A stretch of 64,000 bases of DNA from a virus: positions 1 to 64,000 of the IMG/VR virus record IMGVR_UViG_3300033475_000008. One strand, written 5' to 3'. The translations under genes and the position numbers were made by a program. Under the pieces are notes generated by a model. It searched no databases and was not told the DNA's origin. It saw only the letters and a list, made by a program, of their open reading frames with translations. Within the stretch, counting starts at the first letter, position 1. Every line of letters begins with the position of its first letter. Positions 3,443 to 28,825 of the stretch are shown here, piece after piece.

Positions 3443-4429
3443 ATGCTGATCGTCCTAGAGGGTGTGGACAAGGGTGGTAAGACCTCAGTCGTCCGGGCCC
3501 TCAGTAAGCTCCACCTAAAGACCGGCAGGGGTCAGTTCACCTGCCTCCACCAGGGTCCACCGCCTGAGGGCGTGAATCTGGTGGAGCACTACGAGAGGCC
3601 GCTACTGCAGCCCGAGATGATCACGCGGTGCCTCAGCACTGAGGACCTGGTCGTGTTGGACCGGTGGCACGTCGGTGAGCTCGTGTATGGTCCGCTGCTT
3701 CGTGGTGGGTCCCGGCTCACGGAGGGTGCCGCCCTTCACGTGGAGCTGCTGTTGCAGTCACTGGGCGCGACTCAGGCCCTGGTGCAACCCTACGACGTGC
3801 AAGAGACCCTGAAGAGACACCGCCGGCAACCGGACCTGCTGCTCACGTCTCAGCAAGCCAGTGAGGTCGCGGAGTGGTACCGAGTCTATGCGGTGCACCG
3901 AGACAACTGGTACCAGTATGACAGTGGTGCAGCTTCGGCCACTGAACTCGCTCTCGAGCTACTGCAAGACTCGGCAGACTACACGAGAGAAGTACTCCCC
4001 GTCGCCACCGCTCACCCCTCTTACCTAGGTGACCCACAACCAGACGTGCTCTTGGTAGGTGACACTCGGTCCAACGGTGCTGACGCCTTGACCTGGACCA
4101 CGAAACCGTTCACCCCCGCAGCCACCCTGTCCAGCAGCACCTGGTTGATGGACGCTCTGGCAGCTGCCCCAGTCCCTCCCACTATGTTTGGCCTGGTCAA
4201 TGCCCGGGAGCCAGGGGTACAGTTGAGGAAGTTGTGGTCGGACCTGGGTGAGCCTCGTGTGGTCGCGTTGGGCAACGAGGCGGTCCGAGCCATGAAAGAG
4301 AACAAGCTCGAGTACACGAAGATGTGCCACCCGCAGTGGGCTCGTCGGTTCCGTCATAGTCACCGCGAGGACTACGCGAAGGCACTGAGAAGGGTGGTCG
4401 TCGATGGAGATCCAAACGGAGACTGGTGA
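3443..4429 (+). CDS. thymidylate-kinase-like dNMP kinase fused to a uracil-DNA-glycosylase-like domain
   Basis: N-term IVLEGVDKGGKTS P-loop and LDRW..E.VYG; C-term VLLVGD, PF, PRVVALGNEA and HP motifs of the UDG fold. Confidence 0.75.
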   Translation: MLIVLEGVDKGGKTSVVRALSKLHLKTGRGQFTCLHQGPPPEGVNLVEHYERPLLQPEMITRCLSTEDLVVLDRWHVGELVYGPLLRGGSRLTEGAALHVELLLQSLGATQALVQPYDVQETLKRHRRQPDLLLTSQQASEVAEWYRVYAVHRDNWYQYDSGAASATELALELLQDSADYTREVLPVATAHPSYLGDPQPDVLLVGDTRSNGADALTWTTKPFTPAATLSSSTWLMDALAAAPVPPTMFGLVNAREPGVQLRKLWSDLGEPRVVALGNEAVRAMKENKLEYTKMCHPQWARRFRHSHREDYAKALRRVVVDGDPNGDW

Positions 4430-13028: not shown

Positions 13029-13095
13029 TCCCGGGTAGTTCAATAGGCAAGAACACCTGACGAGGAGGCCGCGGGTTCGAGTCCCGCCCCGGGAG
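13029..13095 (+). ncRNA. tRNA-like RNA with truncated anticodon arm
   Basis: Acceptor TCCCGGG/CCCGGGA, D arm and T arm GCGGG-TTCGAGT-CCCGC intact; anticodon arm only CCT-GACG-AGG. Confidence 0.75.
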
Positions 13096-14397: not shown

Positions 14398-14469
14398 CTC
14401 ACCGTAGCTCAATGGACAGAGCGGTCACCTCCTAAGTGACGAGTGTGGGTTCGACTCCCACCGGTGAGA
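14398..14469 (+). tRNA. tRNA-Arg(CCT)
   Basis: Full cloverleaf; anticodon loop CT-CCT-AA. Confidence 0.9.
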
Positions 14470-19433: not shown

Positions 19434-20464
19434 GAATCCTCGTCACAGGTACCACCAAGCAACAGATCGGTGGCGGCACTCAACTGGGTTACGAGCCAGT
19501 CGCTGACCTGTTCGTGAAGGGGCTCAGGTTCAACCCCGAGTGGCAGGTGGAGCACCGGCTCGCGGAGATCGGTGAGGTCATCACTGACTACGACGCGGTC
19601 TTCGTCGGCCTGGTGCCGCCCCTGTCCATCGCGTCGCATTACCTCTACGCGGCGCTGAACACGATCCACCAGTGCGAGACCCAGGGAATCCCACTGATAC
19701 TCTACGTGGATGACTGGGCGTTCCCCAGCATGATCGGGAAGCTCAAGACCGCGGTGAAGAACCCGGAGCACCTGACCAAGCCGTTCTTCGAGCGTCGGTA
19801 CGGTCACGAGTGGGCCGTAGTGCATCGGGACCTGCTGGTCGGTGTCTTGGAGCGTCTGCTGGAGCAGACGTGGCCGCCCACGGTGATCCCTGCCTTCACG
19901 TGGGGTGACCACCAGGTACTGCAGGATCGACTTCCCATGGTCCAGCGGGCGGTGTTCGTGGACCCGAGTCTGTTTGCTCGCGGCTACGCCGTTCACCCGG
20001 TACCACCTGAGGACAAGCAGCGTCAGTGGGTGTTGGGCACGGTGTCAGACCAGCGGACGTGGCTCGGGAAGCAGCAACTGGGTTGGGACGTCCGCTACAT
20101 CGGGTCTCGTTCCAGCAAGGCCACGGAGAAGATGCAGGAACAGGACTTGGTGGCGCTGTACGCGAAGAGTTGGGGGGTGCTCAGTCCACCCTACAAGCAG
20201 ATCCTCGGCACCGGCTGGTGGCGGAACCGCTTCGTGTACACCTCCTGGATGAGGTCCATCCTGTTCTGTGACCCAGGTGAGGCACCGCAGCTCGGTGGGG
20301 CCTTCCAGCTCAACCCACTGGAGGTCAGTGAGATGAGCGTTCGCGACCTGGCCAACGTCGCTGACTGGCAGTGGCGAGAGCAGGCGCAGCGGATGATGTC
20401 ACGTGATCGGGTTCACCAGACTCTCCGCGACGCTATCACGGCCTCGATGGAGCGAGTCGCGTGA
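19430..20464 (+). CDS. GT-B type glycosyltransferase, putative DNA base glycosyltransferase
   Basis: MRILVTG start, YDAVFVG, YVDDW, LY.KSWGVL.PPY, GWWRNRF; translationally coupled between the dNTPase and UGM. Confidence 0.6.
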   Translation: MRILVTGTTKQQIGGGTQLGYEPVADLFVKGLRFNPEWQVEHRLAEIGEVITDYDAVFVGLVPPLSIASHYLYAALNTIHQCETQGIPLILYVDDWAFPSMIGKLKTAVKNPEHLTKPFFERRYGHEWAVVHRDLLVGVLERLLEQTWPPTVIPAFTWGDHQVLQDRLPMVQRAVFVDPSLFARGYAVHPVPPEDKQRQWVLGTVSDQRTWLGKQQLGWDVRYIGSRSSKATEKMQEQDLVALYAKSWGVLSPPYKQILGTGWWRNRFVYTSWMRSILFCDPGEAPQLGGAFQLNPLEVSEMSVRDLANVADWQWREQAQRMMSRDRVHQTLRDAITASMERVA

Positions 20465-21579
20465 CGCAGCAAACGTGCGTGGTCGTAGGCGCCGGGTTGA
20501 CCGGCGCCTGCGCCGCGTGGTGGCTGAACCAACACGGGTGGCACGTCGAGGTTCATGAGGCTACTCACCAGGTGGGTGGCAACTTGCGGGTAGCCTACCT
20601 CAACGGCGTGCCCTATGAGCCACACGGTCCCCACATCTTTCACACCAGTAGCCGCGAGGCTTACACGGTGATGCGTGATCACTCCCACCTGAACAACTAC
20701 AAGCACCACGTACTCACGCAGCTCCCAGACGGTCGTCACCTCACGTGGCCCCTGCAACTTGAGGAGCTTCAAGCTCTCCCTGAGTGGCCCAAGATCGCAG
20801 CTGAGCTGGACGCTCTCTCTGGGAAGCCAGAGGGAAACAACTTTGAGGCCTACGCGGTCAGTCTGATGGGTCGCACCCTCTATGAGTGGTGCTGTGAGGG
20901 ATACACGTGGAAGCAGTGGGGTCAGGACCCGAAGACCCTGGCTGCGTCTTTCGCTCCAAAGCGCCTGGACCTGCGTAGCGACGGTCGACGCGAGATGTTC
21001 CGGAACACGTGGGAAGGCTACAACACGCAGGGATGGCACGTTACCGTGAACCACCTCCTCCGTGGGATCACGGTCTACACAGACTCACCACTCACCTTGA
21101 GCACGTTGCCAGCCGCTGACGCCTACGTGGTCACTGCCCCCCTGGATCAGTTCCTGGAGGTGGACCAAGAACTACCGTGGCGCGGAGTCCGAACCGTGGC
21201 TGAGTACGTCCCCACCAACGGTGGCTTCCACTTGCCGGCACCCGTGGTGAACCGCCCTGACCAGGACGTCCAGTTCACCCGACAGGTGGAGACCAGTCAG
21301 ATGGCGTGGCACGACGCAGATCCACGTGACGTTCGCAGTGTCGGTGGTACGGTGGTGTGCACGGAGTACCCAGGTGAACCCGTGAAGCACTACCCGGTGG
21401 ATGACGTGGACGGGCGCAACCGGCATGATCACCGCACCCTGGTGACCATGTTGAGGATGCTAGAACCGCGAGCCGTGTTGGCTGGCAGGCTCGCGAATTA
21501 TGTATACATTGACATGGACCAAGCGATCATGCAGGGTCTCAACGCGGCCCGGCAGATCCTCCGGGGGACCAGAGAGTAG
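20461..21579 (+). CDS. glf: UDP-galactopyranose mutase
   Basis: VVGAGLTG FAD motif, E....GGN, HGPHIFHT, GYT.KQWG, EYP, YYP-like HYP, GRLA.Y.YIDMDQAI. Confidence 0.9.
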   Translation: MTQQTCVVVGAGLTGACAAWWLNQHGWHVEVHEATHQVGGNLRVAYLNGVPYEPHGPHIFHTSSREAYTVMRDHSHLNNYKHHVLTQLPDGRHLTWPLQLEELQALPEWPKIAAELDALSGKPEGNNFEAYAVSLMGRTLYEWCCEGYTWKQWGQDPKTLAASFAPKRLDLRSDGRREMFRNTWEGYNTQGWHVTVNHLLRGITVYTDSPLTLSTLPAADAYVVTAPLDQFLEVDQELPWRGVRTVAEYVPTNGGFHLPAPVVNRPDQDVQFTRQVETSQMAWHDADPRDVRSVGGTVVCTEYPGEPVKHYPVDDVDGRNRHDHRTLVTMLRMLEPRAVLAGRLANYVYIDMDQAIMQGLNAARQILRGTRE

Positions 21580-23697
21580 GTGCGTATGGGGTGGAACCCG
21601 ATGAAGGTGGACCTGTCAGATCTCACCGGTCTGCAGGCACCACTGCGAGCAGTGGACGTGCACGGTTTCGGTGGTGGCTTCACCGCCGGAGCCGTGCGCG
21701 CTGGCTTTCAGCTGGTGGGAAAGCGGGAAGGACCAGGTGGATTCGGGGTCTCCCTCTTCGAGGCTAACCGGGCCCTACTCGGTGACCAGTGGAAGGCTCA
21801 GGCCTGCGACGCCAAGGAGTGGGAACCGGTCGCCGCTGACGTGGTGATCGGTACCCCGCCTTGCACCGCGTTCAGCAACATGTCAGCCGGGTTCAGTGAT
21901 CGCGGTGCTGACGCGGCCATCAACCACTGCATGTGGGACCTCATCCGCTACGCCGCCAAGGTCAAGCCAGGCGTAGTGGTCATGGAATCTGTGGCTGGTG
22001 CCTACACGAAGGGTCTTCCTCTCATGGAGGCCCTCAGAGTGGAACTATGTGAGCGGTCTGGTCTCATGTACCGAGCCACTCACGTGTTGCAGAACAACCT
22101 CAGTCTGGGTGGCTGCACCAACCGGAAACGCTACTTCTTGGTGCTCAGTCAGGTACCATTCGGGGTAGAGTCCGCGAACCTGCACTGGTTGCCGACTGTG
22201 GGTGACGCGATCAGTGACCTCAGCGACCTGCAACTGGGCTGGGAGAGCCAGCACGTGGACGCGGCACCCACCTGGTGGTCTGCCAGTATGCGCACCGCCG
22301 ATCACACCGTGGACGGTCACCAGACACCTCGATCCAACCACGGTGACCGGCTCACGGACCTGGTGACCCCACCTGACGGGGTGAGCTGGGAACCGGGTGA
22401 CCGGGTGGCTGACGTGTTGCAACGCTACTACGCTCAACACGAGCGCCTCCCAGAGTCCTGGCGCTACCAGTTCAAGGGACGTCGTGACAAGTCACTGCCT
22501 CCGATCACGCGAGAAGAGCAGTTGGTCACACGCGGCATGGACCCAGGTGGGTTTGGACAGACCCGGTACTGGCCGTGGGACCAACCAGGTAGTGTGATCA
22601 ACGGTGCGGGTCCACACATGATCTGGCACCCCAGCAACCGCATCGCGACGCATCGCGAGGTGGCTCGACTCATGGGCTTCCCAGACGAGTGGCGAGTCGG
22701 TTCTGCCGCTGAGGACAAGCAGCTTCACATGTTCTGGGGTAAGGGCACGTCAGTGCACCCAGCGTGGTGGATCATGACCTGGGCGCGAGAGTCACTGCTG
22801 GGTCACCCGGGTGAGAAGGTCGGGGACGAACTTCCTGACGGTAGTCGACTCGTGGACGTGTCAGGAGACTGGCGTCCCGTGGCTCGGAAGCAGTGGGGCC
22901 AGGAAGTGGAGACGGAGGGCGTTACTCGAGAGAAGAAGACACGCGGGATCCGACAGAGTCGCGGTCCTCGAGTTCCACGAGTGCGGCCCGCTGTGCCAGA
23001 GGGCTTCCAGATGCGGGAGAGCGACCACTACTGCGTGGACGAGGTCTTCGTGCGTCGAGTGTACAGGCAGCTCAAGCTCTCGTCTGTGGACATTGTCCTG
23101 GACCTAGGCGCCCACGTTGGCGCGTTCACACGGTGGGCGAGAGACCAGGGAGCAGGTGCCGTGCACGCCGTGGAGATGATGCCAGAGACCCTGGAGTACC
23201 TGGTCAAGAACACCGAGAGTGACGAACGCGTTCACGTGCTCCACGGTGCGGTCAGCGGTCAAGAGTGTGACCAGGACGGTATGGTGCAGGCTGTACTACA
23301 CTCTCGTGGCAACCCGATGGGTGCCTTCGTGAACGGGACCCGGAAGACCCTCGGTGAGGGGATCAAGGCTCAGGCGTACCGCGTGGTAGAGGTACCGGCT
23401 ATCAGCATGTTGGCACTGCTGCACGAGATCCACCCCACGATCATCAAGTTCGACATCGAGACCAGTGAGTACGACGTGATCACACCCTGGGCGAGCACCA
23501 TCCGAGGTTACGGCGTCAAGCAGCTCATCGGCGAGCATCACGTGATGACACCTGAGCTGGTGCAAAAGGCGCAGGAGCTGCACGCGTCACTGGTAGCCCA
23601 GGGCTACGTGGCCAGTCGACCAGCTCCGACGGTCCCCAGCAACTGGGGAACAGTGATCTACTACACGCTCCCCGACGACGAAACGCCTGATCAGTGA
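21580..23697 (+). CDS. divergent DNA cytosine-C5 methyltransferase fused to a FkbM-family methyltransferase
   Basis: N-part DVHGFGGG, GTPPCTAFS, VMESV, RKRYF, REVARLMGFPD; C-part VLDLGAHVGAF, AVE, IIKFDIE.SE. Confidence 0.8.
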   Translation: MRMGWNPMKVDLSDLTGLQAPLRAVDVHGFGGGFTAGAVRAGFQLVGKREGPGGFGVSLFEANRALLGDQWKAQACDAKEWEPVAADVVIGTPPCTAFSNMSAGFSDRGADAAINHCMWDLIRYAAKVKPGVVVMESVAGAYTKGLPLMEALRVELCERSGLMYRATHVLQNNLSLGGCTNRKRYFLVLSQVPFGVESANLHWLPTVGDAISDLSDLQLGWESQHVDAAPTWWSASMRTADHTVDGHQTPRSNHGDRLTDLVTPPDGVSWEPGDRVADVLQRYYAQHERLPESWRYQFKGRRDKSLPPITREEQLVTRGMDPGGFGQTRYWPWDQPGSVINGAGPHMIWHPSNRIATHREVARLMGFPDEWRVGSAAEDKQLHMFWGKGTSVHPAWWIMTWARESLLGHPGEKVGDELPDGSRLVDVSGDWRPVARKQWGQEVETEGVTREKKTRGIRQSRGPRVPRVRPAVPEGFQMRESDHYCVDEVFVRRVYRQLKLSSVDIVLDLGAHVGAFTRWARDQGAGAVHAVEMMPETLEYLVKNTESDERVHVLHGAVSGQECDQDGMVQAVLHSRGNPMGAFVNGTRKTLGEGIKAQAYRVVEVPAISMLALLHEIHPTIIKFDIETSEYDVITPWASTIRGYGVKQLIGEHHVMTPELVQKAQELHASLVAQGYVASRPAPTVPSNWGTVIYYTLPDDETPDQ

Positions 23698-23804: not shown

Positions 23805-23875
23805 GCCGAAGTGGTCTAACGGTATGACGCCTGGCTTCCAACCAGACGACGCGGGTTCGACTCCCGTCTTCGGTT
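23805..23875 (+). tRNA. tRNA-Gly(TCC)
   Basis: Cloverleaf; loop CT-TCC-AA. Confidence 0.9.
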
Positions 23876-23885
23876 CGCACAGTAT

Positions 23886-23962
23886 GGCCCAGAGCCTCAC
23901 TTGACGGTCAAGTGCTCGCCTGCAAAGCGAGTGGCTCTCCAGTTCGACTCTGGTCTGGGTCT
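23886..23962 (+). tRNA. tRNA-Cys(GCA), atypical D arm
   Basis: Loop CT-GCA-AA; D region is the long hairpin CACTTGAC/GTCAAGTG. Confidence 0.75.
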
Positions 23963-23963
23963 C

Positions 23964-24035
23964 GGTCCCATCGTCTATCGGTTAGGATGCTGGATTTTCA
24001 CTCCAGCGGACGGAGTTCGACTCTCCGTGGGACTA
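23964..24035 (+). tRNA. tRNA-Glu(TTC)
   Basis: Cloverleaf; loop TT-TTC-AC. Confidence 0.9.
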
Positions 24036-24046
24036 CGCAAGAGCAT

Positions 24047-24119
24047 GGTCGAGTGGAGTAGCGGTTATCTCGTCTCCCTCTCAAGGAGAAGATCGCGGGT
24101 TCAAATCCCGTCTCGACTA
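24047..24119 (+). tRNA. tRNA-Glu(CTC)
   Basis: Cloverleaf; loop CT-CTC-AA. Confidence 0.9.
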
Positions 24120-24169
24120 CGCAAGCTGGAACCTAGGCCGGCGCGCGAAAGGGAACCTGATCAGTTCCT

Positions 24170-24236
24170 GGGACTGAGGTGTAGTGCACAGCCGCCTGAT
24201 GGGTGGCGGGGGTCGGAGCGGAACCGGCCAGTCCAC
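24170..24236 (+). ncRNA. highly divergent tRNA-like RNA (GAT loop, non-canonical T loop)
   Basis: GGACTG/CAGTCC; GCCGC-CTGATGG-GTGGC; GTCGG-AGCGGAA-CCGGC. Confidence 0.5.
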
Positions 24237-24247
24237 GTAGTATCGAT

Positions 24248-24321
24248 GGTGTGTTAGCTCAGTTGGTTAGAGCGCTGCCCTGTCAAGGCAGAGGTCGCGG
24301 GTTCAAGTCCCGTACATACCG
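24248..24321 (+). tRNA. tRNA-Asp(GTC)
   Basis: Cloverleaf; loop CT-GTC-AA. Confidence 0.92.
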
Positions 24322-24405
24322 CGCAGGGGTGGGTCAAGCCGGCTGGCACCGGTGATGACGACTATGCCAGTAGTTCCGGACCACCCGGTCCGGTCACCCC
24401 GTTAA

Positions 24406-24478
24406 CCTCCTGTAGAGCAGCTAGGAGTGCTCGTCACCTCGGCGGTGAAGGTCGTGGGTTCAAGTCCCACCAGGAGTG
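24406..24478 (+). tRNA. atypical tRNA (Pro-CGG-like, anticodon arm 2 nt short)
   Basis: Acceptor, D and T arms intact; anticodon arm TCACC-TCGGC-GGTGA. Confidence 0.55.
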
Positions 24479-24489
24479 CGTAAGATCAT

Positions 24490-24564
24490 GGTACTGTAGC
24501 TCAGATGGTAGAGCGCTCGCCTGAAAAGCGAGAGGATTCGGCGGTTCGAGCCCGTCCGGTACCA
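24490..24564 (+). tRNA. tRNA-Phe(GAA)
   Basis: Cloverleaf; loop CT-GAA-AA. Confidence 0.92.
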
Positions 24565-24615
24565 CGTCGGGGTTGGGAAGCCTCGTGGCGGGTAACCACG
24601 CCCTCCCCGGCTCCA

Positions 24616-24689
24616 GGGGTCGTAGTGTCAAATGGAAGACACACCATGTTCGCAACATGGCAGTCCGAGTTCGAACCTCGGTGACTCCA
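24616..24689 (+). tRNA. tRNA-Ala(CGC)
   Basis: Loop TT-CGC-AA; G3:U70. Confidence 0.9.
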
Positions 24690-24793
24690 CGTTAAGTAGA
24701 TCAATCAATGTCCATGGTAAGTTGATTGAGATCGCTTAGCAGGCGAGTTACGACGCCTAGTGACAAGTGACCACGAGGTCACCGTAACACCAT

Positions 24794-24864
24794 GCGGGTG
24801 TAGTTCAATGGTAGAACAGCCGTCTCCAAAGCGGCCAACGTGGGATCGTTACCTACCGCCCGTG
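24794..24864 (+). tRNA. tRNA-Trp(CCA)
   Basis: Loop CT-CCA-AA; atypical T loop ATCGTTA. Confidence 0.85.
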
Positions 24865-24897
24865 CGCAGTACCACGATTATTGAGAACTGAATCTAT

Positions 24898-24969
24898 GCT
24901 GGAGTAGCACAGTGGTAGCGCACCTTCTTGGTAAGAAGGAGGTCGCGGGTTCGATCCCCGCCTTCAGCT
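24898..24969 (+). tRNA. tRNA-Thr(GGT)
   Basis: Loop TT-GGT-AA. Confidence 0.9.
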
Positions 24970-24974
24970 CGCAA

Positions 24975-25045
24975 GCCCCTATGGCGTAACGGTAGCGTAG
25001 CTGGCTTTTACCCAGCGGGCCCAGGATCAACACCTGGTGGGGGCA
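24975..25045 (+). tRNA. tRNA-Lys(TTT)
   Basis: Loop CT-TTT-AC; atypical T loop ATCAACA. Confidence 0.8.
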
Positions 25046-25168
25046 CGGCGGATGCCTGCGGAAACCCTTACTCCGCTCGGGTGTCGAGAGGCCAACTTGA
25101 GTGATCCGCGTGGCGGCTCTCCTCTTGTAAGATCTTGACACGCTCATAGTAGGTGAGCCCCGCGTTAT

Positions 25169-25244
25169 GGTCCGGTATCCCAACTTGGCAGAGGACTACG
25201 GCTCAGACCCGTAGCATGTGTGGGTTCGAATCCCACTCGGATCA
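25169..25244 (+). tRNA. tRNA-Leu(CAG), short variable loop
   Basis: Loop CT-CAG-AC. Confidence 0.85.
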
Positions 25245-25249
25245 CGTAT

Positions 25250-25323
25250 GGCCTGGTAGCCCAATGGCAGAGGCACGGCACTTAAAACGCCGTCAAGTAG
25301 GGGTTCGACTCCCCTGCAGGTCA
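25250..25323 (+). tRNA. tRNA-Leu(TAA), short variable loop
   Basis: Loop CT-TAA-AA. Confidence 0.85.
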
Positions 25324-25324
25324 C

Positions 25325-25399
25325 GCACTCGTAGCCCAACTGGTAGGAGGCACGACGTTGAGGGCGTCGGTAGTACGGGTTCGAATCCCGTCGGGTGTA
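25325..25399 (+). tRNA. tRNA-Leu(GAG), short variable loop
   Basis: Loop TT-GAG-GG. Confidence 0.85.
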
Positions 25400-25404
25400 C
25401 GCAA

Positions 25405-25477
25405 GCTCCTGTAGCCCAATGGCAGAGGCGACGGTTTCAAAAGCCGTTCAGTGTGGGTTCGAGTCCCACTGGGAGTA
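25405..25477 (+). tRNA. tRNA-Leu(CAA), short variable loop
   Basis: Loop TT-CAA-AA. Confidence 0.85.
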
Positions 25478-25478
25478 C

Positions 25479-25548
25479 GGGTTTGACGCTGAGGTAGCGG
25501 ACTTGCCTTGCAAGCAGGTTGCAGTCGGTTCGATTCCGACCAGATCCA
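25479..25548 (+). tRNA. tRNA-Ala(TGC)
   Basis: Loop CT-TGC-AA; G3:U70; short D arm. Confidence 0.8.
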
Positions 25549-25696
25549 CGCTAGGGCTCCACCAGACGAGATATCCGATGGGCGTGGAAGTGGCTGCATA
25601 TCAGACAACGGGTATGCAGAAACTGAAACCGGATGTGGAGGCAAGCCCAGTGGAACGTGGAATGTCACGGTCCGGGTGTAGAAGAGTCTCGTCGAT

Positions 25697-25769
25697 GGGC
25701 TTGTAGCTCAGCTGGTAGAGCGCCGCCTCGGCAGGGCGGAGGTCCGGGGTTCGAGTCCCCGTTGGTCCA
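25697..25769 (+). tRNA. tRNA-Ala(GGC)
   Basis: Loop TC-GGC-AG (C33); G3:U70; weak acceptor stem. Confidence 0.75.
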
Positions 25770-25782
25770 CGCAGTACAGTAA

Positions 25783-25854
25783 GCCCCTATAACACAGCGG
25801 TCAGTGTAACGGACTCTTAATCCGTGAACCCCGGTTCGAATCCGGGTGGGGGTA
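25783..25854 (+). tRNA. tRNA-Lys(CTT)
   Basis: Loop CT-CTT-AA. Confidence 0.9.
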
Positions 25855-25864
25855 CGCAAGTCAA

Positions 25865-25938
25865 TGGGGTGTAGCTCAGCCGGTTAGAGCACCACGCTGA
25901 TAACGTGGCGGTCGGTGGTTCAAGTCCACTCATCCCAA
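25865..25938 (+). tRNA. tRNA-Ile(GAT)
   Basis: Loop CT-GAT-AA. Confidence 0.92.
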
Positions 25939-25988
25939 CGCAACCTACTGGTAGTGTATACGAGTAGGTGGTATGGTAGGCAAGACGG

Positions 25989-26062
25989 TCCAGGGTAGCC
26001 AAGCTGGTTAAGGCACCTCGCTCATAACGAGGAGATCGCGGGTTCGAGTCCCGTCTCTGGTA
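25989..26062 (+). tRNA. tRNA-Met/Ile2(CAT)
   Basis: Loop CT-CAT-AA. Confidence 0.85.
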
Positions 26063-26075
26063 CGCAGTAACACGG

Positions 26076-26148
26076 TGCGGGGTAGGCTAACGGTTACGCC
26101 GAAGGGCTCATAACCCTTTGCATGCTGGTTCGAATCCAGTCCCCGCCA
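26076..26148 (+). tRNA. tRNA-fMet(CAT)
   Basis: Loop CT-CAT-AA; three G-C pairs in the anticodon stem; 1:72 mismatch. Confidence 0.88.
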
Positions 26149-26161
26149 CGCAAGGTTCCAT

Positions 26162-26240
26162 GGGCGTCATGCTCCAAGGTGGAGCACCCGGCTGTAACCC
26201 GGACGCTAACGCACGGCAGGTTCGATTCCTGCGGCGCCCA
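26162..26240 (+). tRNA. tRNA-Tyr(GTA)
   Basis: Loop CT-GTA-AC; extended variable arm. Confidence 0.85.
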
Positions 26241-26241
26241 C

Positions 26242-26314
26242 TCTCCATTGGTGTAACCGGCAACACGCTTGACTCTGAATCAAGAGAGTCCTGGTTCGAA
26301 CCCAGGGTGGAGAG
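26242..26314 (+). tRNA. tRNA-Gln(CTG)
   Basis: Loop CT-CTG-AA; U1:A72. Confidence 0.9.
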
Positions 26315-26319
26315 CTCGA

Positions 26320-26394
26320 TCCCTGTTGGGCGAATTGGCAGAGCCGCCTGGCTTTGAACCAGGAGTCATCCAGGTTCGAACCCTGGACAGGGAG
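26320..26394 (+). tRNA. tRNA-Gln(TTG)
   Basis: Loop CT-TTG-AA. Confidence 0.9.
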
Positions 26395-26401
26395 CGCTTG
26401 A

Positions 26402-26473
26402 TCTCTCGTAGCTTAACGGCAGAGCGACGCACTGTTAATGCGTTAGGTCCTGGTTCGAATCCAGGTGAGAGAG
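26402..26473 (+). tRNA. tRNA-Asn(GTT)
   Basis: Loop CT-GTT-AA. Confidence 0.92.
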
Positions 26474-26476
26474 CGA

Positions 26477-26551
26477 GGTCGGAGGGATGCGGGTTCGAGT
26501 CCCGTCTAGTGGGTTAATCTCCACTGGTAGCTCAATGGCAGAGCACCGGCC
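26477..26551 (+). ncRNA. circularly permuted tRNA-like RNA (YrlA/Y-RNA-like topology)
   Basis: Order is GGTCGG, T arm, loop-closed acceptor stem CTAGTGG/CCACTGG, D arm, CCGGCC. Confidence 0.75.
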
Positions 26552-26555
26552 GTAA

Positions 26556-26628
26556 CTGGATGTCGCCTAGTGGTATGGCACCTGGTTTGGGACCAGGAAC
26601 AATGGGAGTTCGATTCTCCCCATCCGGA
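26556..26628 (+). tRNA. tRNA-Pro(TGG)
   Basis: Loop TT-TGG-GA. Confidence 0.9.
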
Positions 26629-26638
26629 CGCACCACTT

Positions 26639-26722
26639 GGAAGAGTCGCCTAGTGGCTATGGCGCCTCACTGCTAATGAGGTTGGGGTAACACCCTCGCA
26701 GGTTCGAGTCCTGTCTCTTCCG
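26639..26722 (+). tRNA. tRNA-Ser(GCT)
   Basis: Loop CT-GCT-AA; long variable arm; G73. Confidence 0.9.
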
Positions 26723-26808
26723 CCGTTGCGTTGGACTCAAGGAGCGTGCACCTCCTCCAGTGCGGCGAGCATTACTCCCTGGTCTCCCTCGGGACTGCCA
26801 GGGCTTTT

Positions 26809-26895
26809 GGAAAGGTCCGCCTATCGGTAACGGGCAGCACCTTGGAATGGTGTGAAGGTGTCACAGCCGTCGGGGTTCAACTCCCCGTCTTTCCG
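26809..26895 (+). tRNA. tRNA-Ser(GGA)
   Basis: Loop TT-GGA-AT; long variable arm. Confidence 0.85.
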
Positions 26896-26900
26896 CGCAG

Positions 26901-26972
26901 GTCAGTGTGGCTCAGTGGTAGAGCGCTTGCATGACACGCAAGAGGTCGAAGGTTCGAACCCTTCCATTGACA
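26901..26972 (+). tRNA. tRNA-Val(GAC)
   Basis: Loop AT-GAC-AC. Confidence 0.9.
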
Positions 26973-26973
26973 C

Positions 26974-27045
26974 GTCGTTGTGGTCTAGTGGTATGACGCC
27001 GCCTTGCCAAGGCGGAGACCGCGAGTTCGAATCTCGTCAACGGCA
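26974..27045 (+). tRNA. tRNA-Gly(GCC)
   Basis: Loop TT-GCC-AA. Confidence 0.9.
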
Positions 27046-27135
27046 CAAACGCGACGGCCTCGCGATCTGGTGTGAGTGCCAGAGAAGGTCACCTGAGGGT
27101 GATTCTAGGCGTGCCCTCGGGAGATCAGGCCAGCT

Positions 27136-27219
27136 GGAGAGCTGGACAGGTGGTGCGTCAAGCGGCCTTGAAAGTCGTCACCGTGAAAGCGGCTGGGGGT
27201 TCGATTCCCTCGCTCTCCG
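27136..27219 (+). tRNA. tRNA-Ser(TGA)
   Basis: Loop CT-TGA-AA; long variable arm. Confidence 0.85.
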
Positions 27220-27258
27220 CGGGTGCCAGGTGTTCCCCTAGTGGCCCTGGCACCGCTT

Positions 27259-27343
27259 GGAAGGTTCGACAGGTGGTGCGTCAAGCGTCTTCGAATGGCG
27301 TGGCGGTGTCAAGCCGTTGAGGGTTCGATTCCCTTGCCTTCCG
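27259..27343 (+). tRNA. tRNA-Ser(CGA)
   Basis: Loop TT-CGA-AT; long variable arm. Confidence 0.85.
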
Positions 27344-27344
27344 C

Positions 27345-27417
27345 GCACTTGTAGCTCAGTTGGTAGAGCACTCGCCTCGTAAGTGAGTGGCCGCAGGTTC
27401 GATCCCTGTCAGGTGCT
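27345..27417 (+). tRNA. tRNA-Thr(CGT)
   Basis: Loop CT-CGT-AA. Confidence 0.9.
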
Positions 27418-27428
27418 CTCGTAGTAAC

Positions 27429-27502
27429 GCTGGTATAGCTCAGTTTGGCAGAGCACCCGCCTTGTAAGCGGAAGCGCGTCGGTTCGAAGCCGGCTACCAG
27501 CT
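27429..27502 (+). tRNA. tRNA-Thr(TGT)
   Basis: Loop CT-TGT-AA. Confidence 0.9.
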
Positions 27503-27611
27503 CGGACCACGCCTTCGCGAGAAGACCTAGGCGCGTGGTGACAGGGTTCATGGTGAGAGATCGGTGTCACGGACCATGAAAGCTACCAGGGTGGGCAGGG
27601 TAGTGCAACAC

Positions 27612-27684
27612 CGGGATGTGGCCTAGTTGGTAAGGCACGTGACTGGGGGTCACGAGAGCGCTGGTTCGAGTCCAGTCATCCCGA
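27612..27684 (+). tRNA. tRNA-Pro(GGG)
   Basis: Loop CT-GGG-GG. Confidence 0.9.
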
Positions 27685-27782
27685 CGGAAGTGCCACCCCT
27701 CGAGATTCTGACGCTGGGGGCGCTGAGTTAAGACGCGTCAGGTCTTGGCTGGTTTGCCGGTACCAACCACCACCGGTTCTAG

Positions 27783-27853
27783 GCTCTTGTAGCTCAATGG
27801 GAGAGCGCCTCGTTCACACCGAGGATACGGAGGTTCGATTCCTCTCAAGAGTA
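27783..27853 (+). tRNA. tRNA-Val(CAC)
   Basis: Loop TT-CAC-AC. Confidence 0.9.
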
Positions 27854-27854
27854 C

Positions 27855-27926
27855 GGTGACCGTGGTGTAGCGGTAACACGCTTGACTGTGGCTCAAGCGT
27901 CACGGGTTCGATCCCCGTCGGTCACA
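27855..27926 (+). tRNA. tRNA-His(GTG)
   Basis: Loop CT-GTG-GC; encoded G-1; A73 rather than the usual bacterial C73. Confidence 0.88.
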
Positions 27927-28072
27927 CGCGTAGGGAGTCGCTGGTCCCCATGCACTAGCCGTTCTACTTCGAGTCGCGCACCGGCCAGCTACCGGGAAGA
28001 GTCAAAAGTGATGATCCACCGTCCGCTGGTGGAAGTAGAGCCAAGATAGAAGATCATCACAACCAGCACCAC

Positions 28073-28259
28073 GTGTCTGTAGCTCAGGATAGGACAGAGC
28101 GGCCCGAACAACGGAGGGCGGCAGGCAAGAGGTTTGCGGATGCACCGGGTCCGGGCCTGACGGTCACAAGCCGAAGGGTTGGGGTACCTTATCCCCCGGC
28201 AGGGAAGCGCGTTTGACCAAACTTGCCCATCAGCGTGGGTTCGAATCCCACCAGACACG
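28073..28259 (+). ncRNA. tRNA-like RNA with ~135-nt structured insert
   Basis: Perfect acceptor GTGTCTG/CAGACAC, Arg-like D arm and T arm GTGGG-TTCGAAT-CCCAC flank a long insert. Confidence 0.75.
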
Positions 28260-28269
28260 CGTAGTACGA

Positions 28270-28329
28270 GGGCCTAGTTACCCAAGGTGAGGGTGCGCGC
28301 GCAACCGGGTTCGACTCCCGCTAGGTCCA
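28270..28329 (+). ncRNA. mini tRNA-like RNA with G3:U70
   Basis: GGGCCTAG/CTAGGTCC-A; CGGG-TTCGACT-CCCG; no D or anticodon arm. Confidence 0.6.
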
Positions 28330-28330
28330 C

Positions 28331-28403
28331 GGGTCTGTAGCTCAGAGGACAGAGCCGCCGGCTTCTACCCGGCTGGTCGTGGGTTCGACTCCCACCGGGC
28401 CCA
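28331..28403 (+). tRNA. tRNA-Arg(TCT)
   Basis: Loop CT-TCT-AC; A20. Confidence 0.9.
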
Positions 28404-28419
28404 CTGGTTGAGATTGGTT

Positions 28420-28449
28420 GTTTACATCTAGTCGAGATCGTGGTATAGT
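28420..28449 (+). promoter_or_regulatory. GTTTACA-type promoter
   Basis: TTTACA-17 nt-TATAGT followed by leader AGCAGGACAGCAGGAA. Confidence 0.75.
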
Positions 28450-28499
28450 GGTTCTAGCAGGACAGCAGGAAGCAAAACTGAAGAGTGACGAGTAACGAT

Positions 28500-28575
28500 G
28501 AGTCTGTAGCACAGCGGATAGTGCAGCTGCTTCCGAAGCAGCAGGTCGGAGGTTCGAATCCTCTCAGGCTCACCA
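28500..28575 (+). tRNA. tRNA-Arg(CCG)
   Basis: Loop TT-CCG-AA; encoded CCA. Confidence 0.92.
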
Positions 28576-28578
28576 GCG

Positions 28579-28742
28579 ATGCTGGCACCAGGGCATAAGC
28601 GTGACGGTCAACCACGGCTGAGAGTCGGACTGATGAGCAACGGTCCACCTGGTGGAGGTGCGGGCACTAACGCGTGGTGGCGAGTGTACCAACAGATCCT
28701 CACCCTTCTTGCTCTGAGACTTACCACCTCAGAGCAAGAAGG
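28579..28742 (+). ncRNA. unknown structured ncRNA, copy A
   Basis: Paralogous to 28826..28986 with compensatory stem changes. Confidence 0.75.
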
Positions 28743-28746
28743 TCAA

Positions 28747-28819
28747 GCCTCTGTAGCACAGCGGATAGTGCGCCTGATTACGGATCAGGAGGCCGGGGGT
28801 TCGAATCCCTCCAGGGGTA
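28747..28819 (+). tRNA. tRNA-Arg(ACG)
   Basis: Loop TT-ACG-GA. Confidence 0.92.
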
Positions 28820-28825
28820 CAAGTG

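What the first reader, a model, noticed from the sequence alone, without database searches (positions are those of the whole stretch)
28073..28259. 187-nt tRNA scaffold carrying a large structured insert
Seen: perfect acceptor, D and T arms with an Arg-type D loop. The anticodon/variable region is replaced by GCCC-GAACAACGGA-GGGC plus a ~110-nt domain closed by GGCAAG/CTTGCC, with internal stems such as GGGG-TACCTTAT-CCCC and GGTCA/TGACC. It is too short for a group I intron or tmRNA and lacks G3:U70. Inference: a natural tRNA-scaffolded functional RNA, or a tRNA with a novel intron.
Basis: partly seen in the sequence, partly recalled or inferred. Interest (0 to 1): 0.72.

Follow-up and report, generated by a model that had tools for sequence, protein, structure and literature searches.

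The report
Anticodon-locked tRNA-shaped phage RNA
This unannotated 187-base gene in a phage's tRNA cluster encodes a tRNA-shaped RNA that almost certainly cannot read codons. A large, nearly invariant extra arm appears to pair with the loop where the anticodon should be. The same RNA recurs in Streptomyces phages, giant plasmids and scattered actinobacterial genomes, is in no RNA database I could search, and its job is unknown.

Summary
Window 28073-28259 (+) has a perfect 7-bp acceptor stem and D and T arms. It also has an 18-nt hairpin in the anticodon position and a 104-nt domain closed by GGCAAG/CTTGCC. ARAGORN and Rfam 15 do not call it.

It is not a one-off. I collected about 45 homologues with the same architecture:
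- 17 Streptomyces phage records
- 6 giant linear Streptomyces plasmids
- phage and bacterial tRNA arrays
- sporadic actinobacterial genomes (4 of 151 Streptomycetaceae, 1 of 151 Micromonosporaceae)

Covariation supports the acceptor, anticodon-position, T and closing stems, and the tRNA 15:48 Levitt pair. The roughly 75-nt core is almost invariant. The loop (consensus AAAACG) is complementary to CGUUUU in the 3' strand of the extra arm, with two kinds of compensatory change. This is a non-decoding tRNA mimic, not an intron-bearing tRNA, a tmRNA or a YrlA member.

The function is unknown. My best guess is a trans-acting decoy or adaptor that engages tRNA-handling host factors.

Ro60 (TROVE) genes are not enriched in genomes that carry the RNA (12/24 versus 82/151), and none is found in this phage record.

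This scan has met the same family before on other DNA (e1-5596685, e1-5741192, e1-5677383 and others).

The parts
28073..28079 (+). Acceptor stem, 5' strand (GTGTCTG); pairs with 28252-28258.
   Evidence: Sequence. In the family, 6 of 7 acceptor pairs show changes on both sides.
28080..28101 (+). U8, A9 and the D arm (GCTC / 11-nt loop with G18 G19 A20 / GAGC), then position 26.
   Evidence: Sequence. U8, A14, GG and A21 are invariant or nearly so in A2. G15 (28087) covaries with position 48 (28234): G:C in 28 and A:U in 10 of 41 unique members, other combinations in 3.
28102..28119 (+). Hairpin in the anticodon-arm position: 4-bp stem GCCC/GGGC and 10-nt loop GAACAACGGA. It has no U33 and no 7-nt loop.
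   Evidence: All 4 stem pairs covary in the family. The loop consensus begins AAAACG.
28110..28113 (+). Loop bases AACG, proposed to pair with CGTT at 28210-28213 (the 'lock', a pseudoknot).
   Evidence: Loop and strand are complementary for 4-6 nt in nearly all members. Pair 39:314 of A3 is AU 32, CG 2, GC 2, GU 1. The window copy has only 4 contiguous pairs.
28124..28129 (+). Closing stem P1 of the extra arm, 5' strand (GGCAAG); pairs with 28222-28227.
   Evidence: 26 distinct complementary helices at this position among 41 unique members.
28130..28209 (+). Near-invariant core. It contains GGT 28131-33 (pairs with ACC 28216-18), mini-hairpin TGC-GGAT-GCA 28135-44, CCGGGTCCGGGCC 28145-57, variable hairpin 28156-28177 (overlapping the last two bases of that segment), GGGTTGGGGTACC 28176-88, loop TTAT, CCCCC 28193-97, GGCA, GGG 28202-04 and AAGCG.
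   Evidence: A2 has long runs of invariant columns across 35 members. The outer pairs of the variable hairpin covary (helix 7). No Rfam family matches.
28210..28221 (+). 3' strand of the extra arm: CGTT (partner of the loop), TG, ACC (pairs with GGT 28131-33), AAA.
   Evidence: inspection.
28222..28227 (+). Closing stem P1, 3' strand (CTTGCC).
28228..28234 (+). Linker to the T arm; C28234 takes the place of tRNA position 48.
   Evidence: Levitt-pair covariation with position 15.
28235..28251 (+). T arm: GTGGG / TTCGAAT / CCCAC.
   Evidence: 4 of 5 T-stem pairs covary; the loop GTTCGA is invariant.
28252..28259 (+). Acceptor stem 3' strand (CAGACAC) and discriminator G. CCA is not encoded.
   Evidence: Sequence.

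Best explanation
Shown: 28073-28259 is a gene for a 187-nt member of an undescribed family of tRNA-shaped RNAs carried by actinobacterial phages, giant plasmids and mobile tRNA arrays.

Shown by covariation: the RNA keeps the whole upper body of a tRNA, namely the acceptor, D and T arms and the 15:48 tertiary pair. In the variable-arm position it carries a roughly 100-nt domain closed by a covarying stem.

Partly shown: the loop in the anticodon position pairs with CGUU(UU) on the 3' strand of that domain. The 'anticodon' is therefore sequestered, and the near-invariant roughly 75-nt core sits at the anticodon end of the L-shaped fold.

Inferred:
- It is transcribed with the phage tRNA array and released by RNase P and the 3' tRNA-processing enzymes.
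- It receives CCA from the host enzyme.
- It cannot decode.
- It acts in trans as a stable tRNA mimic: a decoy or adaptor whose tRNA body engages tRNA-handling host factors, while the invariant head binds a conserved, still unknown partner.
- It most likely serves the mobile element in the conflict over host translation and tRNA integrity, the same conflict that phage tRNA arrays and RNA-end-healing enzymes belong to.
For: - Real and conserved: homologues in 14-17 Streptomyces phage records, all unannotated, in 6 linear plasmids of 296-432 kb, and in about 45 loci from viral, metagenome and genome scans.
- Model R1 separates members (127-196 bits) from tRNAs (<=31 bits).
- tRNA fold: 95.5% of cells are paired, against 84.9% in shuffles. 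Eighteen pairs show double changes (0 of 500 shuffles reach this). Acceptor 6/7, anticodon-position stem 4/4 and T stem 4/5 pairs covary. The Levitt pair is G:C in 28 and A:U in 10 members. P1 takes 26 distinct helices.
- Non-decoding: loops are 8-12 nt and lack U33 in every member.
- Lock: AACG:CGUU or longer in nearly all members, with ACACG:CGUGU in L024 and L063 and AGAC:GUCU in L064 and L114. The A-rich loop of the variable hairpin does not change in those members.
- Mobile and accessory: 4/151 and 1/151 genomes in two families. The RNA often lies inside tRNA arrays of 10-26 genes.
- Dependence on host factors: neighbours are not conserved. This phage record shows no Ro60, RtcB, RNA ligase or CCA-adding enzyme.
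- Context of tRNA damage and repair: PNKP-type and SAK-type HAD phosphatases occur in several carrier phages. One lies 59 nt downstream of the RNA in one Streptomyces lineage.
Against: - There is no expression, processing or binding data for any member.
- The partner is unknown, and 'decoy or adaptor' is an inference from shape and distribution.
- The lock rests on one covarying pair with two kinds of compensation. Its two outer pairs hold in only 41-58% of rows. In the window copy the lock is only 4 bp.
- An almost invariant core is what one expects of a ribozyme or a ligand pocket as much as of a protein-binding site.
- Neither Ro60 nor HAD_SAK_2 genes are enriched in genomes that carry the RNA, so no protein link is established.
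- Conservation of ACG and A20, which are ArgRS identity elements in E. coli by textbook knowledge, leaves open that the RNA is charged.
Confidence: 0.45

Rival explanations
1. It is a new kind of Y RNA. The invariant head binds a Ro60 (TROVE) protein and the tRNA-like body recruits an effector, as proposed for YrlA.
For: TROVE genes occur in carrier phages Gilson, Moab, Satis and the L006 contig. Earlier notes of this scan report members beside Ro60 genes in other phages. 54% of sampled Streptomycetaceae encode a TROVE protein, so a host Ro60 is often available. All 4 RNA-positive genomes in that sample are TROVE-positive.
Against: - No TROVE gene was found in this 91-kb record, estimated 89% complete, or in the 159-kb carrier contig G306.
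- 12 of 24 RNA-positive bacterial genomes have TROVE, against 82 of 151 in the background (Fisher p = 0.83). Only about 3% of Streptomycetaceae carry the RNA.
- In the phages the two genes lie 12-40 kb apart.
- Satis already has a YrlA-like RNA (43 bits) directly upstream of its TROVE gene.
- The Rfam YrlA model does not hit the element.
- The topology differs, with an open acceptor stem.
Confidence: 0.15
2. The invariant head is a ligand-binding pocket or a ribozyme, and the lock is a regulated switch. The RNA would be a sensor or catalyst mounted on a tRNA scaffold for stability and processing.
For: Near-total invariance of about 75 nt across unrelated phages and hosts. A peripheral variable hairpin is capped by GNRA or A-rich loops, typical of tertiary docking. 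Insertions are tolerated only at two loops. No conserved protein neighbour exists.
Against: No Rfam riboswitch or ribozyme matches, even weakly and recurrently. The RNA stands in no cis position relative to any regulated gene. Degenerate and deleted copies suggest ordinary gene decay rather than self-cleavage products. Nothing points to a particular ligand.
Confidence: 0.12
3. It is charged, for example with arginine, and delivers the amino acid or itself to the ribosome or to a non-ribosomal transferase, as tmRNA or non-proteinogenic tRNAs do.
For: A complete acceptor/T minihelix with an A or G discriminator. A20 and ACG are frequent. tRNA-Arg is the nearest isotype on average. The loop:strand pairing ACG:CGU equals an Arg anticodon:codon pair.
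Against: - Acceptor pairs 2:71 to 6:67 vary freely, so no acceptor-based identity is conserved.
- ACG is paired in the predicted fold.
- There is no G3:U70, no conserved reading frame and no stop codon.
- ARAGORN finds no tmRNA.
- tRNA-Arg genes are not enriched as neighbours.
Confidence: 0.08
4. It is a tRNA gene interrupted by a novel intron that is spliced out to give a working tRNA.
For: The ends form a perfect tRNA and the insert is bounded by a stem.
Against: - The insert is in the variable-arm position.
- What would remain has an 8-12-nt loop without U33 in every member.
- The insert is more conserved than the tRNA body, the opposite of most introns.
- It is too small for group I or II introns, and none matches.
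- The arrays already carry full tRNA sets.
Confidence: 0.03

Closest known systems
YrlA / bacterial and phage Y RNAs (Rfam RF02553; Chen et al. 2014, PMC4201824; Wang et al. 2018, bioRxiv 10.1101/312249)
   Same: A non-coding RNA that mimics the tRNA body (D arm, T arm, acceptor-like stem, tertiary pairs) joined to a second functional module. Found in bacteria and in actinobacteriophages with tRNA clusters. Expected to be a substrate for tRNA-processing and tRNA-modifying enzymes.
   Different: In YrlA the 5' and 3' ends form the Ro60-binding stem and the acceptor-like stem is closed by a loop. Here the ends form a normal open 7-bp acceptor stem and the extra module sits in the variable-arm position. 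The YrlA model does not score the element. No Ro60 gene is in this record, and there is no genome-level association.
Class II tRNAs with a long variable arm (Leu, Ser, Tyr), and tRNA-Arg as the likely ancestor (Rfam RF00005)
   Same: A cloverleaf with an extra stem emerging between the anticodon stem and position 48. U8, A14, G18G19, the 15:48 pair and the T loop are conserved. The RNA sits among tRNA genes on the same strand.
   Different: The extra arm is about 100 nt instead of 10-20 nt and nearly invariant. The anticodon loop is 8-12 nt without U33 and appears base-paired. The tRNA model gives 15.9 bits against a threshold of 29, and ARAGORN makes no call.
tmRNA (Rfam RF00023)
   Same: A large RNA with a tRNA-like acceptor/T domain and pseudoknotted extra structure, present in some phages with tRNA arrays.
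   Different: It has a true D stem and a hairpin in the anticodon position. There is no conserved G3:U70 (G3:C70 here), no tag reading frame and no conserved stop. It is about half the size of a tmRNA. ARAGORN and Rfam do not call it.
T-box Stem I specifier:anticodon pairing (resemblance in mechanism only; from my general knowledge)
   Same: A structured RNA presents a codon-like triplet (here CGU) to a tRNA anticodon-position loop (here ACG).
   Different: Here the pairing is in cis within one molecule and extends to 4-6 bp. No T-box sequence features or downstream regulated gene are present. No Rfam T-box match.

Membership tests
Canonical tRNA (RF00005) | Acceptor, D and T arms with conserved tertiary nucleotides | tested here: met
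   (including covariation of the 15:48 pair).
Canonical tRNA (RF00005) | 5-bp anticodon stem with a 7-nt loop, U33 and a readable anticodon | tested here: not met
   4-bp stem and 10-nt loop GAACAACGGA in the window; 8-12-nt loops without U33 in all members.
Canonical tRNA (RF00005) | Score at or above the Rfam gathering threshold, or an ARAGORN call | tested here: not met
   15.9 bits against 29; no ARAGORN call. One homologue (L091) reaches 37.7 bits with the insert treated as an insertion.
YrlA Y RNA (RF02553) | Match to the family model | tested here: not met
   No hit on the element at E<=10 in the phage's own record. In 9 homologue loci, all YrlA rows are below the 69-bit gathering score and none aligns the family's conserved core; a few overlap an element's tRNA-like 5' end together with the upstream tRNA (L019, L001, L004, L063).
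YrlA Y RNA (RF02553) | 5' and 3' ends form the Ro60-binding stem; the acceptor-like stem is closed | tested here: not met
   The ends form an open 7-bp acceptor stem.
YrlA Y RNA (RF02553) | Encoded next to, or together with, a Ro60 (TROVE) gene | tested here: not met
   No TROVE in the record. 12/24 against 82/151 in the background. 12-40 kb apart in Gilson and Satis.
YrlA Y RNA (RF02553) | Physical binding to Ro60 | not testable with these tools
   Needs immunoprecipitation or a gel-shift assay.
tmRNA (RF00023) | G3:U70 alanine identity | tested here: not met
   G3:C70 in the window. Pair 3:70 is CG 18, UA 15, GC 5, GU 2, AU 1 in the family.
tmRNA (RF00023) | Tag reading frame ending in a stop codon | tested here: not met
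   Reading from the conserved GCA gives frames of different length, with no conserved stop (inspection).
Group I intron in a tRNA gene | Insertion in the anticodon loop, P3-P8 catalytic core, at least about 200 nt | tested here: not met
   The insert is in the variable-arm position and is 104 nt. No intron family appears at E<=10.
The undescribed family defined here (model R1) | tRNA body, hairpin with an AAAACG-type loop, covarying closing stem, and the invariant core motifs GCGGATGCACCGG and CCCCCGGNAGGGAAGCGCG | tested here: met
   All parts are present in the window. The score is 162 bits, but the window was in the training set. Members outside the training set score 127-190 bits.

The most novel reading that the evidence does not exclude
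The extra arm supplies, in cis, an arginine codon (CGU plus flanking U's) to an ACG anticodon kept from a tRNA-Arg ancestor. The RNA would then be a 'pre-decoded' tRNA: a tRNA-with-its-own-codon module capped by an invariant domain. Such a molecule could plug a vacant ribosomal A or P site, or could jam anticodon-directed enzymes such as ArgRS or anticodon nucleases. Alternatively it could be a conditional tRNA whose anticodon is released when the head binds a ligand or protein. Either way it would be a new functional class of RNA spread by actinobacterial phages and plasmids.
Probability: 0.1. Interest if true: 0.9.

Novelty: new variant of a known kind. Interest (0 to 1): 0.68.

Why it matters
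Phage and plasmid tRNA arrays are now seen as counter-measures to host defences that attack tRNAs. This RNA is a recurrent, strongly conserved passenger of those arrays. It also travels alone on giant Streptomyces plasmids, yet no annotation pipeline sees it.

An approximately 75-nt core that hardly changes between unrelated phages and hosts implies a precise three-dimensional structure and a conserved partner or chemistry. Identifying that partner could reveal a new way in which mobile elements manipulate translation or RNA repair.

The RNA is also a natural example of the tRNA-scaffold design used in RNA engineering. Several carriers (Gilson, Satis and relatives) are culturable SEA-PHAGES isolates on laboratory Streptomyces, so the question can be tested directly.

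Tried and rejected
- **RNA evidence.** One search for sequencing runs listed no RNA holder. Only soil DNA runs appeared, each with small shares of the words. I did not lay reads.
- **Known RNA families.** Rfam at E<=10 on the window and on 9 homologue loci gave nothing recurrent over the core. The weak HDV-like hit (13.8 bits) is noise.
- **Ro60 dependence.** Tested at genome level and not supported.
- **HAD_SAK_2 phosphatase link.** 16/24 against 88/151, p = 0.51, so no enrichment. True adjacency occurs only in one Streptomyces lineage.
- **Shared proteins among four carrier phages.** No protein is common to all at the blastp level.
- **Conserved neighbours in 24 bacterial loci.** None found. 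Pfam and NCBIfam on the flanks were mostly blank.
- **tRNA-Arg as a preferred neighbour.** Not enriched.
- **Ro-binding motif GNCGAA(N)G of Chen et al.** It occurs in the window's variable hairpin and in a few members but is not conserved, so I read it as chance.
- **tmRNA-like tag reading from the conserved GCA.** No conserved stop.
- **Promoter scan.** Uninformative for the element.
- **Pattern hits L013-L015 and L149, and 24 genome hits from other phyla.** Chance matches lacking the rest of the element.
- **Literature.** Four full-text searches (a fifth call was rejected as malformed) found no description of this RNA.

Full report
**What is in the sequence**

The window comes from a 91-kb IMG/VR virus record. 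It carries 40 ARAGORN tRNA genes, 39 of them in an array at 23.8-28.8 kb on the + strand. Together they cover every amino acid except Cys. Between tRNA-His (27856-27927) and tRNA-Arg(TCT) (28331-28404) lies the reported element.

Read base by base, it has these parts:
- a perfect 7-bp acceptor stem (28073-79 / 28252-58, with G3:C70) and discriminator G
- U8 and A9
- a D arm (GCTC / 11-nt loop / GAGC)
- a hairpin GCCC-GAACAACGGA-GGGC where the anticodon arm should be
- a 4-nt linker
- the stem GGCAAG/CTTGCC enclosing 92 nt
- a 7-nt linker
- a canonical T arm (GTGGG-TTCGAAT-CCCAC)

ARAGORN and Rfam at gathering thresholds skip the element. With permissive thresholds the tRNA model reaches only 15.9 bits, and nothing else is meaningful. 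The minimum-energy fold of the single sequence is not better than shuffles (z = -1.05). The case therefore rests on comparative data.

**It is a family, not an oddity**

blastn found the element, unannotated, in 14-17 Streptomyces phage records. These include Gilsonvirus phages of about 128 kb and the 186-kb Satis group. In Moab a hypothetical CDS was drawn over it.

Pattern scans for the 3' core motif were checked for the 5' core motif and then with a covariance model. They added viral contigs, 16 metagenome contigs and about 25 actinobacterial genome contigs: Streptomyces, Kitasatospora, Actinoplanes, Streptosporangium, Frankia, Microbispora, Herbidospora, Planotetraspora and Kineosporiaceae. 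Six linear Streptomyces plasmids of 296-432 kb also carry it.

Model R1 gives members 127-196 bits and ordinary tRNAs at most 31 bits. Pattern hits from other phyla were chance matches.

The gene is rare and patchy: 4 of 151 Streptomycetaceae and 1 of 151 Micromonosporaceae genomes sampled. It often lies inside dense tRNA arrays of 10-26 genes, in phages and in an Actinoplanes genome alike, but it also stands alone with no tRNA nearby. This is the distribution of an accessory gene of mobile elements.

**Structure**

On the model-guided alignment of 44 matches (43 distinct sequences), 95.5% of cells form standard pairs, against 84.9% in shuffles and 29-48% when partners are slid. Eighteen pairs show changes on both sides, which no shuffle reaches.

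- Acceptor stem: 6 of 7 pairs covary.
- Anticodon-position stem: 4 of 4 pairs covary.
- T stem: 4 of 5 pairs covary.
- Closing stem of the insert: 26 different complementary sequences.
- Position 15 in the D loop covaries with the base just before the T stem (G:C 28, A:U 10). This is the Levitt pair, a signature of the tRNA L-shape.
- U8, A14, G18G19, A21 and the T loop are invariant or nearly so.

The core between the closing-stem strands is almost invariant, so its internal pairings cannot be settled by covariation. What can be said about the core:
- A mini-hairpin UGC-GGAU-GCA tolerates a one-base loop insertion in Moab and Satis.
- A variable hairpin covaries and is capped by GNRA or A-rich loops.
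- The loop between GGGG and CCCCC accepts unrelated extra hairpins in Streptomyces copies and in Satis.

**The lock**

I tested this.

The loop begins AAAACG in most members, and the strand that follows the invariant GGGAAGCG reads CGUUUU. The two are complementary for 4-6 nt in nearly every member. Where the loop reads ACACG the strand reads CGUGU (L024, L063). Where it reads AGAC the strand reads GUCU (L064, L114). Pair 39:314 is AU 32, CG 2, GC 2, GU 1. The A-rich loop of the variable hairpin does not change in those members, so the covariation is specific to this pairing.

Support is real but thin. There is one covarying pair, the outer two pairs are often absent, and some rows are misaligned by one base. 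In the window the pairing is A28110-G28113 with C28210-T28213, only 4 bp, followed by GGT/ACC (28131-33 / 28216-18) and then the closing stem.

With or without the lock, no member has a 7-nt loop with U33, so none can decode in the normal way.

**Origin**

Compared with the tRNAs of 15 loci, the D-arm and T-arm regions are nearest to tRNA-Arg on average (14.2, against Lys 11.6 and Ala 11.2). In the window, Arg(TCT) and Arg(CCT) are the best matches. A20 and ACG are common but not universal. tRNA-Arg genes are not enriched as neighbours. Descent from a tRNA-Arg is plausible but not shown.

**What it is not**

- Not an intron-bearing tRNA. The insert is in the variable-arm position, the remainder is not a tRNA, the insert is more conserved than the body, and no intron family matches.
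- Not a tmRNA. There is no conserved G3:U70 and no tag frame, and neither ARAGORN nor Rfam calls it.
- Not a YrlA member. The model does not score it and the topology differs. The best YrlA-like hit in this phage is a different RNA at 26462-26572 (36 bits, below threshold).

**Looking for a partner**

Several earlier notes propose a Ro60 link.
- This record has no TROVE gene, nor does the 159-kb carrier contig G306. Gilson, Moab, Satis and L006 do, but 12-40 kb away in the complete phages.
- Among bacterial genomes with the RNA, 12 of 24 encode TROVE, against 82 of 151 sampled Streptomycetaceae (p = 0.83). The RNA occurs in only about 3% of those genomes.
- Satis has a YrlA-like RNA right upstream of its TROVE gene, so the classical partner slot is already filled there.

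The Ro60 idea is not excluded, since hosts often have Ro60, but it gains no support here.

A SAK-type HAD phosphatase lies 59 nt downstream of the RNA in one Streptomyces lineage, and within a few kb in L006, L029 and L094. It is not enriched genome-wide.

This phage has a PNKP-type HAD phosphatase at 78442-78906 of its record, but no RtcB, RNA ligase or CCA-adding enzyme. The four large carrier phages share no protein at the blastp level. Plasmid and chromosomal neighbours are unrelated hypothetical proteins. The RNA must therefore work with host components, which fits the invariance of its core across hosts.

**Best reading**

A stable, non-decoding tRNA mimic made from the tRNA array transcript by the tRNA-processing machinery. 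Its tRNA body engages tRNA-handling factors, and its invariant head, positioned at the anticodon end, binds a conserved partner. It acts as a decoy or adaptor for the benefit of the mobile element.

The structural part is well supported. The functional part is inference, and I put the whole at 0.45. No expression data could be found, and I found no paper describing the RNA.

Degenerate and internally deleted copies exist (L080, L020, and a 106-nt form in five metagenome contigs). This shows ordinary gene decay where selection lapses.

**Novelty and prior notes**

This scan has met the family several times on other DNA (e1-5596685, e1-5741192, e1-5677383, e1-5664858, e1-5406935, e1-5682350). 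My independent tests agree on the architecture and on the absence of the family from Rfam. They add the Levitt-pair and closing-stem covariation, prevalence figures and the plasmid carriers. They weaken the Ro60 link at genome level.

I file it as a new variant of a known kind, the tRNA-mimicking non-coding RNAs, with an architecture not described for any of them.

Noticed in passing
window 26462-26572 (+): Best YrlA-like (RF02553) match in the phage record: 36.2 bits, E = 1e-7, below the gathering score of 69. It lies inside the tRNA array, although the record has no TROVE/Ro60 gene.
   Followed up: partly
window 28270-28329 (+): A 60-nt tRNA-like mini element directly after the finding, with an acceptor-like stem and a TTCGACT T loop but no normal D or anticodon arms. 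The tRNA-Sec model gives 17.9 bits. The YrlA model gives 27.8 bits over 28278-28389.
   Followed up: no
window 13029-13095 (+): A 67-nt tRNA called by Rfam (51.5 bits) but not by ARAGORN, far from the main array.
   Followed up: no
window 23805-28820: The array has 39 tRNA genes on one strand, and a 40th (Arg-CCT) lies at 14398. Together they cover 19 amino acids, and tRNA-Cys is the only one missing. A promoter-like site (TTTACA-17-TATAGT) at 28421-28449 splits off the last two Arg tRNAs.
   Followed up: no
window 20461-23697 (+): A phage-encoded UDP-galactopyranose-mutase-like flavoprotein (GLF, 372 aa) is followed by a 705-aa fusion of a C5 cytosine DNA methylase with an FkbM-type methyltransferase. 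This may be a DNA-modification module.
   Followed up: no
L134:10978-11086 (-) = phage Satis 86978-87086: A YrlA-like RNA (43 bits, E = 3e-6) lies immediately upstream of the Satis TROVE (Ro60-like) gene. It is unannotated in the record region I saw.
   Followed up: partly
L006:4026-4760, L028:13798-14571, L029:5373-6116: A DUF7873 protein (PF25283, E = 2e-89) is embedded in or next to the tRNA arrays of three carrier phage contigs. Its function is unknown.
   Followed up: no
L095:169-355 and 3474-3686: Two diverged copies of the RNA lie 3.1 kb apart on one Streptomyces contig. The second is followed by the SAK-type HAD phosphatase.
   Followed up: partly
L037:3941-4046 (-); also L041, L042, L048, L058: A 106-nt internally deleted form of the RNA, in which the D arm is joined directly to the 3' half of the core. 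It recurs with an identical score in five metagenome contigs. L080 and L020 are degenerate full-length copies.
   Followed up: partly
L154:14442-14906 (-) = own record 78442-78906, outside the window: A stand-alone PNKP-type HAD phosphatase (PF25109, 58 bits) in this phage. It is shared with Satis, L006 and L029. No kinase or ligase partner was found in the record.
   Followed up: partly
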